Assembly: GCF_022045235.1 (NCBI RefSeq)
Contig: NW_027266343.1
Span: 49,166,001 to 49,230,000 of the forward strand
Direction: 5' to 3'
DNA from: Haliotis cracherodii
Taxonomy: Eukaryota
DNA length: 64,000 nucleotides
Shown here one piece after another: positions 16,063 to 16,705 of this stretch. Position 1 is the stretch's first letter. Each line of letters opens with the position of its first letter. Below the pieces are notes generated by a model. That model was not told where the DNA came from, did not search any database, and saw nothing but the letters and a program-made list of their open reading frames with translations. The position numbers and the translations under genes were made by a program.

Positions 16063-16277
16063 TCAGAACTTGTGTTTGGATGTCCCGATCTTGGTCTTCT
16101 TGTTGTCTCCACCCATGATTGATGCGATGTACCGGTCCTGCTGTCTCTGCACCTCGAGCTCGCTGACCCTGTACTTGCTGACCCGGGCCTGTTCCCGTAA
16201 CTTGCGCTCCAGGACCCGGATCTCCTCCTGCTTCTGATGTAGCACACCCTCCTTCTCACTGCACCGCCGGGCGATAT
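16063..16277 (-). CDS. SPATA24: SPATA24 exon 5 (terminal)
   Basis: Acceptor tattgtcag|16277. Encodes D-IARRCSEKEGVLHQKQEEIRVLERKLREQ...LEVQRQQDRYIASIM...KHKF*, which parallels the vertebrate EDILNGKENEIKEL...IQKQQESYMAQVL. Confidence 0.92.
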
Positions 16278-16705
16278 CTGACAATACACACCACTACATC
16301 ACCACCTCCTTCTCACTGCACTGCCGGGCGATATCTGACAATACACACCACTACATCACCACCTCCTTCTCGATGCACTGCCGGGAGATATCTGACAATA
16401 CACACCACTACATCACCACCTCCTTCTCACTGCACTGCCGGGTGATATCTGACAATACACACCACTACATCACCACCTCCTTCTCACTGCACTGCCGGGT
16501 GATATCTGACAATACACACCACTACATCACCACCTCCTTCTCACTGCACTGCCGGGTGATATCTGACAATACACACCACTACATCACCACCTCCTTCTCA
16601 CTGCACTGCCCGGTAATATCGGACAATACACACCACTACATCACCACCTCCTTCTCACTGCACTGCCGGGCAATATCGGACAATACACACTACTACATCA
16701 CCACG
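16249..16705. repeat. 57-bp tandem array (8 units) duplicating the SPATA24 intron 4/exon 5 junction
   Basis: Unit CTCCTTCTCACTGCACTGCCGGGNGATATCTGACAATACACACCACTACATCACCAC. The first unit overlaps the coding exon. Confidence 0.95.

What the first reader, a model, noticed from the sequence alone, without database searches (positions are those of the whole stretch)
16249..16705. Tandem array of decoy splice acceptors in front of the last SPATA24 exon
Seen: the 57-bp unit is 28 nt of intron end plus the first 29 nt of exon 5. Five upstream copies keep the intact TATTGTCAG|AT acceptor (AG at 16336/35, 16393/92, 16450/49, 16507/06, 16564/63). The two most upstream copies have AG changed to CG. Use of any decoy gives ...RCQ-DIxRQCxEKEVVM-TAG, removing ~58 C-terminal residues, and because it is the last exon no downstream junction would trigger NMD. 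Inference: the spliceosome may skip five near-identical acceptors, or truncated isoforms may exist. Alternatively the GAG|GTGGTG junction could serve as a new donor that splices to AAGGAG|GGTGTG in the true exon and restores the full protein, i.e. intron gain by tandem duplication. Copy number could tune isoform ratios.
Basis: partly seen in the sequence, partly recalled or inferred. Interest (0 to 1): 0.7.

Follow-up and report, generated by a model that had tools for sequence, protein, structure and literature searches.

The report
Possibly leaky abalone splice-acceptor "mirage"
The boundary between the last intron and last exon of an abalone SPATA24 gene is repeated eight times in a row; spliced contigs from related organisms run through the last, genuine copy, and the other copies likely leak only a little shortened protein, so this is a repeat of a kind already described in lancelets.

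Summary
In detail: 8 x 57 nt at 16249-16704, each unit being 28 nt of intron end plus 29 nt of the last (sixth, not fifth) coding exon of SPATA24. Five of seven upstream copies keep AG; using one gives a 181-aa protein instead of 239. The array is real. Units occur in a DNA-like run of another organism, and RefSeq isoforms of H. rufescens (one identical to the copy-7 product, 181/181) and H. rubra (same breakpoints, 58-nt unit) read into it. In 4 of 7 RNA-like runs laid, a single contig joins exon 5 to the full-length last exon. No listed contig joins exon 5 to a decoy and onward into the repeat. Array units appear in 4 of 7 runs, from minor decoy use or unspliced RNA. The intron-gain idea is not supported. 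This is a new member of the amphioxus "mirage" class (PMC3087553). The scan has noted this class many times, at least five times elsewhere in this genome. The only extras are the array's apparent age across abalone lineages and a possible leak.

The parts
16249..16704 (-). 57-nt x 8 splice-acceptor minisatellite (mirage); unit = 28 nt intron end + first 29 nt of last exon
16591..16704 (-). copies 1-2: acceptor AG changed to CG; share two private changes (unit columns 27 and 33), so probably one mutation then duplication (inferred)
16306..16590 (-). copies 3-7: intact decoy acceptors (AG at 16564/63, 16507/06, 16450/49, 16393/92, 16336/35); copies 3-5 identical; each carries an in-frame TAG four codons after the exon head
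16278..16305 (-). true intron end (copy 8 intron part); weak UG-rich acceptor, pyrimidine fraction 0.5; possible branch A at -22 (inferred from a TGAT motif, untested)
   Evidence: sequence
16063..16277 (-). SPATA24 last coding exon (exon 6), codons 169-239 plus stop; carries R173 where all 7 decoys and 3 orthologues have Q
16705..16934 (-). unique 5' part of intron 5 (donor AAG|GTGCGT at 16934); intron 657 nt, 258 nt without the seven extra units
   Evidence: joint 16935-16676 on the one-unit stretch
16935..17005 (-). SPATA24 exon 5
18117..18247 (-). SPATA24 exon 4
   Evidence: loose ends at 17005 read exon 4
19568..19630 (-). SPATA24 exon 3
20738..20815 (-). SPATA24 exon 2
23454..23615 (-). 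SPATA24 coding exon 1

Best explanation
This is a tandem duplication of the last intron/exon boundary of SPATA24 that has become a minisatellite; spliced contigs from related organisms enter the full-length last exon, likely because only the last copy is followed by the real exon body, and the upstream copies likely leak a minor, tolerated truncated transcript. Steps. (1) Shown: unit anatomy, 5 intact and 2 dead decoys, and the 181-aa product of decoy use. (2) Shown in relatives: the full-length junction is the one that single contigs bridge. (3) Inferred: one old duplication, before H. rubra split from the rufescens/cracherodii lineage, then turnover by unequal crossing-over and conversion, with edge copies decaying. 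(4) Inferred: the acceptor is weak (UG-rich, no real pyrimidine tract), so recognition depends on exon definition, meaning enhancers and 3'-end signals of the true terminal exon; decoys followed by only 29 exon nt and more GU-rich intron lose the competition. (5) Inferred, about even odds: a few to about 20% of transcripts in some samples use a decoy, stop at the in-frame TAG and keep the true exon as 3' UTR.
For: Anatomy. Dominant full-length junction: 7 RNA-like runs laid (of 24 listed). The exon5-to-exon-head joint appears in 6 of 7. One contig runs exon 5 - exon head - true exon remainder in 4 of 7 (X4 depth 6.4, X7 10.3, X14 24.7, X17 14.3; 30 laid letters plus 122 or more loose letters that read the true exon). 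X1 also shows the true exon as a loose end. Real and old: the DNA-like run X15 holds unit contigs and a 116-nt shorter 5' edge. H. rufescens isoform X3 equals the copy-7 product 181/181 and X4 differs at 2 residues, i.e. another copy. The H. rubra X2 tail matches the unit read through in a shifted frame at 10 of 12 residues with the same stop, although the two proteins are 216/239 identical. Turnover: copies 3-5 identical, edge copies 1-2 and copy 6 diverged, as described for BflGb6 (PMC3087553 passages). Leak: array-unit contigs including the intron part in 4 of 7 runs (X1, X2, X4, X17); a 'goes back 57' joint in X1 and X2; junction contigs of X1 and X2 stop at the end of the exon head, as a branch would cause. 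Rough ratios of unit depth to junction depth 0-0.93 (contig depths are a poor measure). The lost C-terminal part is conserved in bivalves and lies inside PF15175. Mouse Spata24 knockouts are fertile (PMC7401351 passages), which fits tolerance.
Against: No listed contig bridges exon 5 - decoy head - next intron part (0 of 7 runs; 6 pieces were not shown). Array contigs could come from unspliced RNA or DNA, amplified by collapse of several copies onto one unit. RefSeq decoy isoforms could come from short-overhang reads placed on the nearer identical copy (inference). None of the runs is on record as RNA, and none shares more than 0.25 of the words, so none is shown to be the window's species. 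In X7 and X14 the exon head differs from copy 1 at one letter only, like a copy-7-type decoy head, so these two cannot tell which copy supplied it. The exon-definition mechanism is untested; no GGG run lies in the unit, so the CBS-type G-run silencer is not available as support. Two RNA-like runs (X7, X14) show no array at all.
Confidence: 0.6

Rival explanations
1. Fully silent mirage: only the last acceptor is ever used; array sequence in RNA-like runs is unspliced pre-mRNA or DNA, and the RefSeq truncated isoforms are read-placement artefacts.
For: 0 of 7 runs show a contig bridging exon 5 - decoy - repeat; X7 and X14 show no array. Published mirages are reported not to give aberrant mRNAs (PMC3087553, PMC3902484 passages). 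The distal site is strongly favoured in CBS 844ins68.
Against: Decoy isoforms are annotated independently in two species, one on a copy with two private amino-acid changes (P0006). In X2 the loop contig (11.7) is nearly as deep as the junction contig (15.1), and in X1 and X2 the junction contig breaks at the branch point.
Confidence: 0.26
2. Selected splicing switch: the array is kept because decoy use yields an NMD-escaping 181-aa SPATA24 lacking the last third of its coiled-coil domain, at a level set by tissue or by the number of intact acceptors.
For: Same breakpoints in H. rubra and in the rufescens/cracherodii lineage, with truncated isoforms annotated in both. Array signal differs strongly between runs. 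VNTR length is reported to affect splicing in human ABCA7 (PMC5954066 passages).
Against: The truncated C-terminus is not conserved: VVM-stop in rufescens, a 16-residue frame-shifted tail in rubra. Decoy heads accumulate amino-acid changes (columns 34, 37, 47, 48) and two copies lost AG. The same kind of array was noted at several other genes of this genome (unchecked AI notes), which suggests a mutational habit rather than a device.
Confidence: 0.1
3. Intron gain: a decoy head is spliced as a 29-nt exon, and a new intron from GAG|GTGGTG to AAGGAG|GGTGTG restores the full protein.
For: The frame would be restored (239 aa for copies 3-7). [quoted passage not shown] X7 and X14 cannot exclude it.
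Against: The needed acceptor is GAG with pyrimidine fraction 0.22 (real acceptors 0.50-0.72), and the donor fits the recalled U1 consensus poorly after +3. In X4 the mRNA contig lacks the 16671 variant of that run's array contig. In X17 the mRNA head has 2 differences where the array contig's 3 differences leave room for only 1 in the head (inferred).
Confidence: 0.03
4. Assembly artefact.
For: None found; no long genomic reads were examined.
Against: Copies differ in an ordered way. Unit contigs occur in a DNA-like run and 4 RNA-like runs of other organisms. RefSeq models from two other species' assemblies read into the unit.
Confidence: 0.01

Closest known systems
Amphioxus 'mirages' (Adh3, globins BflGb6/BflGb9, troponin C, PGBD5); PMC3087553 and PMC3902484, passages read
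   Same: Minisatellite-like tandem copies of an intron 3' end plus exon 5' part (BflGb6 is the same geometry, 3-6 units); many but not all units keep the splice signal; concerted evolution inside, edge units excluded; regular splicing preserved; Adh3 mirages reported in two Branchiostoma species.
   Different: A mollusc; at a terminal exon, so decoy use would leave no downstream junction; annotated truncated isoforms in two species hint at leak, whereas the lancelet cases are reported as not producing aberrant mRNA.
[quoted passage not shown]
   Same: Duplicated acceptor plus exon head; the distal copy is strongly preferred and normal mRNA results.
   Different: Two copies, not eight; distal choice there is promoted by G runs between the sites, and this unit has no GGG.
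Human F7 IVS7 37-bp VNTR (PMC1557585, abstract only) and ABCA7 intron 18 25-bp VNTR (PMC5954066, passages)
   Same: A VNTR whose units repeat a real splice site; pseudo-sites silent (F7) or slightly leaky, with splicing changes related to length (ABCA7).
   Different: Donor side, not acceptor side.
SPATA24 family (Pfam PF15175)
   Same: P0001 scores 128.8 bits against a cutoff of 27, residues 62-230.
   Different: Decoy product would lose residues 179-239.

Membership tests
Mirage (exon/intron-boundary minisatellite) | Tandem, minisatellite-like units spanning a real intron-exon boundary | tested here: met
   8 x 57 nt, 28 intron + 29 exon
Mirage (exon/intron-boundary minisatellite) | Many but not all units keep the splice dinucleotide | tested here: met
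   5 of 7 upstream copies AG, 2 of 7 CG
Mirage (exon/intron-boundary minisatellite) | Concerted evolution inside the cluster, edge units less homogenised | tested here: met
   copies 3-5 identical; copies 1-2 differ from them at 3-4 sites; copy 6 is also divergent
Mirage (exon/intron-boundary minisatellite) | Regular mRNA still made from the authentic copy | tested here: met
   single contigs exon 5 - full last exon in 4 of 7 runs laid, from related organisms only
Mirage (exon/intron-boundary minisatellite) | No aberrant transcripts from the extra copies | tested here: inconclusive
   RefSeq decoy isoforms and array contigs in 4 of 7 runs, but no bridging contig
Mirage (exon/intron-boundary minisatellite) | Length instability between haplotypes | tested here: inconclusive
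   differences between organisms seen (X15 116-nt shorter 5' edge; 58-nt unit implied in H. rubra); within-species alleles not examined
Intron gain by tandem duplication (Rogers type) | Duplicated exonic AG|GT proto-splice site giving a usable donor and acceptor | tested here: not met
   the unit is an intron/exon junction; the true exon reads GAG|GGT; would-be acceptor pyrimidine fraction 0.22
Intron gain by tandem duplication (Rogers type) | mRNA takes its exon head from the upstream copy | tested here: inconclusive
   against in X4 and X17, uninformative in X7, X14, X1, X2
CBS 844ins68-type G-run silencing | G runs between the duplicated acceptors | tested here: not met
   GGG count 0 in both parts of the unit
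SPATA24 (PF15175) | Score above Pfam gathering cutoff | tested here: met
   128.8 bits versus 27

The most novel reading that the evidence does not exclude
An acceptor mirage that has survived since the split of distant abalone lineages and is not silent: it acts as a natural dial in which the number of intact upstream acceptors sets the share of an NMD-escaping truncated SPATA24, making it an acceptor-side, terminal-exon, cross-species counterpart of human splicing VNTRs.
Probability: 0.1. Interest if true: 0.55.

Novelty: new member of a known kind. Interest (0 to 1): 0.25.

Why it matters
As it stands, this is one more mirage. Its use is as a natural test bed for 3' splice-site choice among identical acceptors, since private SNPs tag most copies and the true head (R173 codon) in this species. 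It is also a caution that gene annotation can list truncated isoforms on such arrays. If leak that scales with copy number were shown, it would be the first mirage that I found described as producing real isoforms (searches; subscription papers and supplements not seen), and a conserved one.

Tried and rejected
X23 laid nothing (no proof of absence). The unique part of intron 5 (16705-16925) has no cover in the 6 covered RNA-like runs while the DNA-like run X15 covers 16775-17100; this is recorded here only, as a weak hint, and not counted as evidence. An 8-nt inverted match between the unit's intron part and the true exon forms a stem around the true acceptor, but z = -1.31 (22 of 200 shuffles as good): rejected. 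G-run silencing as in CBS: no GGG in the unit. No AATAAA/ATTAAA in 14800-16063, so the 3' end was not mapped and the NMD-escape argument rests on the annotation only. A second protein search for assembled transcripts ending in the decoy tail found none among 6 hits of 35 candidates. A date for the H. rubra versus H. rufescens split was sought in three papers (passages) and not found; 'distant lineages' rests on 216/239 protein identity and on recall. The 67-nt array at the window start looks acceptor-like but I found no exon at it by eye. PMC2891723 (passages) concerns exonic proto-splice-site duplication, a different geometry. PMC6905558 (passages) shows a polymorphic intronic minisatellite in another abalone gene, not at a splice site. 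One search's single listing (Haliotis + SPATA24) was not opened; one search was seen as a listing, apart from PMC7401351. Classical duplicated-splice-site experiments favouring the distal site when the proximal exon is truncated, and human splice-site VNTR sQTLs, are recalled, not read.

Full report
Observation. Tandem Repeats Finder gives 8.0 copies of 57 nt at 16248-16704, 96% matches, no indels. On the minus strand each unit is 28 nt of intron end followed by the first 29 nt of an exon. A six-exon model translates exactly to RefSeq protein P0001, named SPATA24-like of Haliotis cracherodii, with PF15175 at 128.8 bits. The affected exon is therefore the sixth coding exon. The unit occurs only here in G000 (8 of 8 matches in the array, control 0) and the gene is single-copy. 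Use of any decoy gives 181 aa ending in VVM-stop and removes a C-terminal part that aligns with oyster and scallop orthologues.

The array is real and not recent. The RefSeq clusters read in full (5 of 5 and 3 of 3 members) contain H. rufescens isoforms X3 and X4 of 181 aa. X3 is identical to the product predicted from copy 7 (181/181), and X4 differs at two residues inside the exon head, as another copy would. H. rubra isoform X2 continues after the same exon-head end with a 16-residue tail. Its last 12 residues match this unit read in a shifted frame at 10 positions and stop at the same place, which implies a 58-nt unit with the same two breakpoints. H. rubra and window proteins are 216/239 identical. 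One origin before these lineages split is the simplest reading (inference; I found no date). The base after the head is G in both true exon and decoys here, and is probably A in both in H. rubra (Ser versus Met), which hints at lineage-wise homogenisation or at recurrent origin (inference from protein only). All 7 decoys keep the Q codon seen in three orthologues, while the true exon has R173, so the array predates that change. The DNA-like run X15 holds several unit contigs and an allele 116 nt shorter at the array's 5' edge; summed depth 38.8 against 7.4 in the flank suggests about five copies, a rough figure only.

Which acceptor is used. Of 24 runs listed (none on record as RNA apart from three miRNA-Seq runs, none sharing more than 0.25 of the words), I laid 8 on a stretch with exon 5, the unique intron and one unit as stand-in for all copies: 7 RNA-like and 1 DNA-like. 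The joint from exon 5 to the exon head appears in 6 of 7 RNA-like runs; X23 laid nothing. In 4 of 7 (X4, X7, X14, X17) one contig continues from the head into the true exon remainder, so the full-length mRNA is what assembles. In X1 and X2 the junction contig has only 28 letters past the joint and ends at the end of the head; X1 also shows the true exon as a loose end, and both show a 'goes back 57' joint. Array-unit contigs that include the intron part occur in 4 of 7 (X1, X2, X4, X17) and not in X7 or X14. No listed contig runs exon 5 - head - repeat; 6 pieces were not shown. Unit-to-junction depth ratios are 0.75, 0.93, 0.39, 0.23, 0, 0. Spread over 4-7 extra units per molecule, this would be about 3-23% of molecules in the four positive runs, but contig depth is a poor measure and unspliced RNA would look the same.

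Mechanism. The acceptor is UG-rich with pyrimidine fraction 0.5, tied for the lowest of this gene's five. Each unit has its own candidate branch motif, so a strict first-AG scan would pick copy 3, which the contigs from relatives do not bear out. The likely rule is exon definition: only copy 8 is followed by the exon body and the 3' end, while decoys are followed by 29 nt and more GU-rich intron (inferred; classical duplicated-site experiments are recalled, not read). A G-run silencer as in CBS 844ins68 (PMC1802585, PMC2630376 passages) is not available, since the unit has no GGG. An RNA stem around the true acceptor is not significant (z -1.31). I give it 3%.

Comparison with what is known. 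Ebner et al. (PMC3087553, passages) describe exactly this geometry in amphioxus globin BflGb6 under the name 'mirage': tandem copies of an intron 3' end plus exon head, many but not all keeping the splice signal, concerted evolution with edge units excluded, normal splicing preserved, and a hypothetical route to intron gain. PMC3902484 (passage) adds Adh, troponin C and PGBD5. Donor-side human cases are F7 IVS7 (abstract) and ABCA7 (passages). I was led to the mirage papers and F7 by earlier scan notes and checked them myself. Those notes list 8 similar arrays in other genomes, and one search shows 5 notes on splice-site arrays elsewhere in this genome among the 8 displayed of 47 fitting; these are unchecked AI notes. 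This locus passes the four mirage features I could test fully; silence and within-species length variation remain open. I found no paper on this locus (subscription journals and supplements not seen).

Verdict. A real, ordinary mirage: new member of a known kind, interest 0.25. What sets it slightly apart is that it seems shared by distant abalone lineages and may leak a truncated isoform that annotation pipelines have picked up in two species. Best reading: distal-dominant with tolerated minor leak (0.6). Fully silent 0.26; selected switch 0.10; intron gain 0.03; artefact 0.01. Mouse Spata24 is dispensable for male fertility (PMC7401351 passages), which lowers the stakes further.

Noticed in passing
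window 1-320; L008 8409-9820: 67-nt array continues upstream to 13 copies (L008 8949-9820), with two inverted copies of the same unit at L008 8409-8545 about 400 nt before it: looks like a small foldback/MITE-type element with terminal repeats inside an intron.
   Followed up: partly
window 2832-2971: 15-nt x 9.3 repeat that appears to lie in an open exon of a plus-strand gene (about 2721-3076), encoding a short Pro/Val/Ala/Lys-rich repeat (read by eye).
   Followed up: no
window about 17170-17560 (minus) and 34250-34625 (plus): A roughly 400-nt dispersed repeat with a poly-C/(CA)n core sits in SPATA24 intron 4 and again, inverted, near 34.3 kb (seen by eye).
   Followed up: no
window 18117-18109: Exon 4 ends at a tandem donor (GC|GTAG|GT) whose first four intron bases give an in-frame stop; unnamed protein P0012 ends exactly there, probably a gene call on unspliced sequence.
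   Followed up: no
P0005 (H. rufescens isoform X2): Alternative short first exon replacing the N-terminal 54 residues; not located in the window.
   Followed up: no
whole window: 24 tandem arrays of period 13 or more cover about 14.6% of the window; several (for example 33232-33615, 130 nt x 3) contain splice-like motifs, not checked against genes.
   Followed up: partly
window 15900-15985: 23-nt x 3.7 repeat just downstream of the SPATA24 stop codon, probably in the 3' UTR; no AATAAA/ATTAAA between 14800 and 16063.
   Followed up: no
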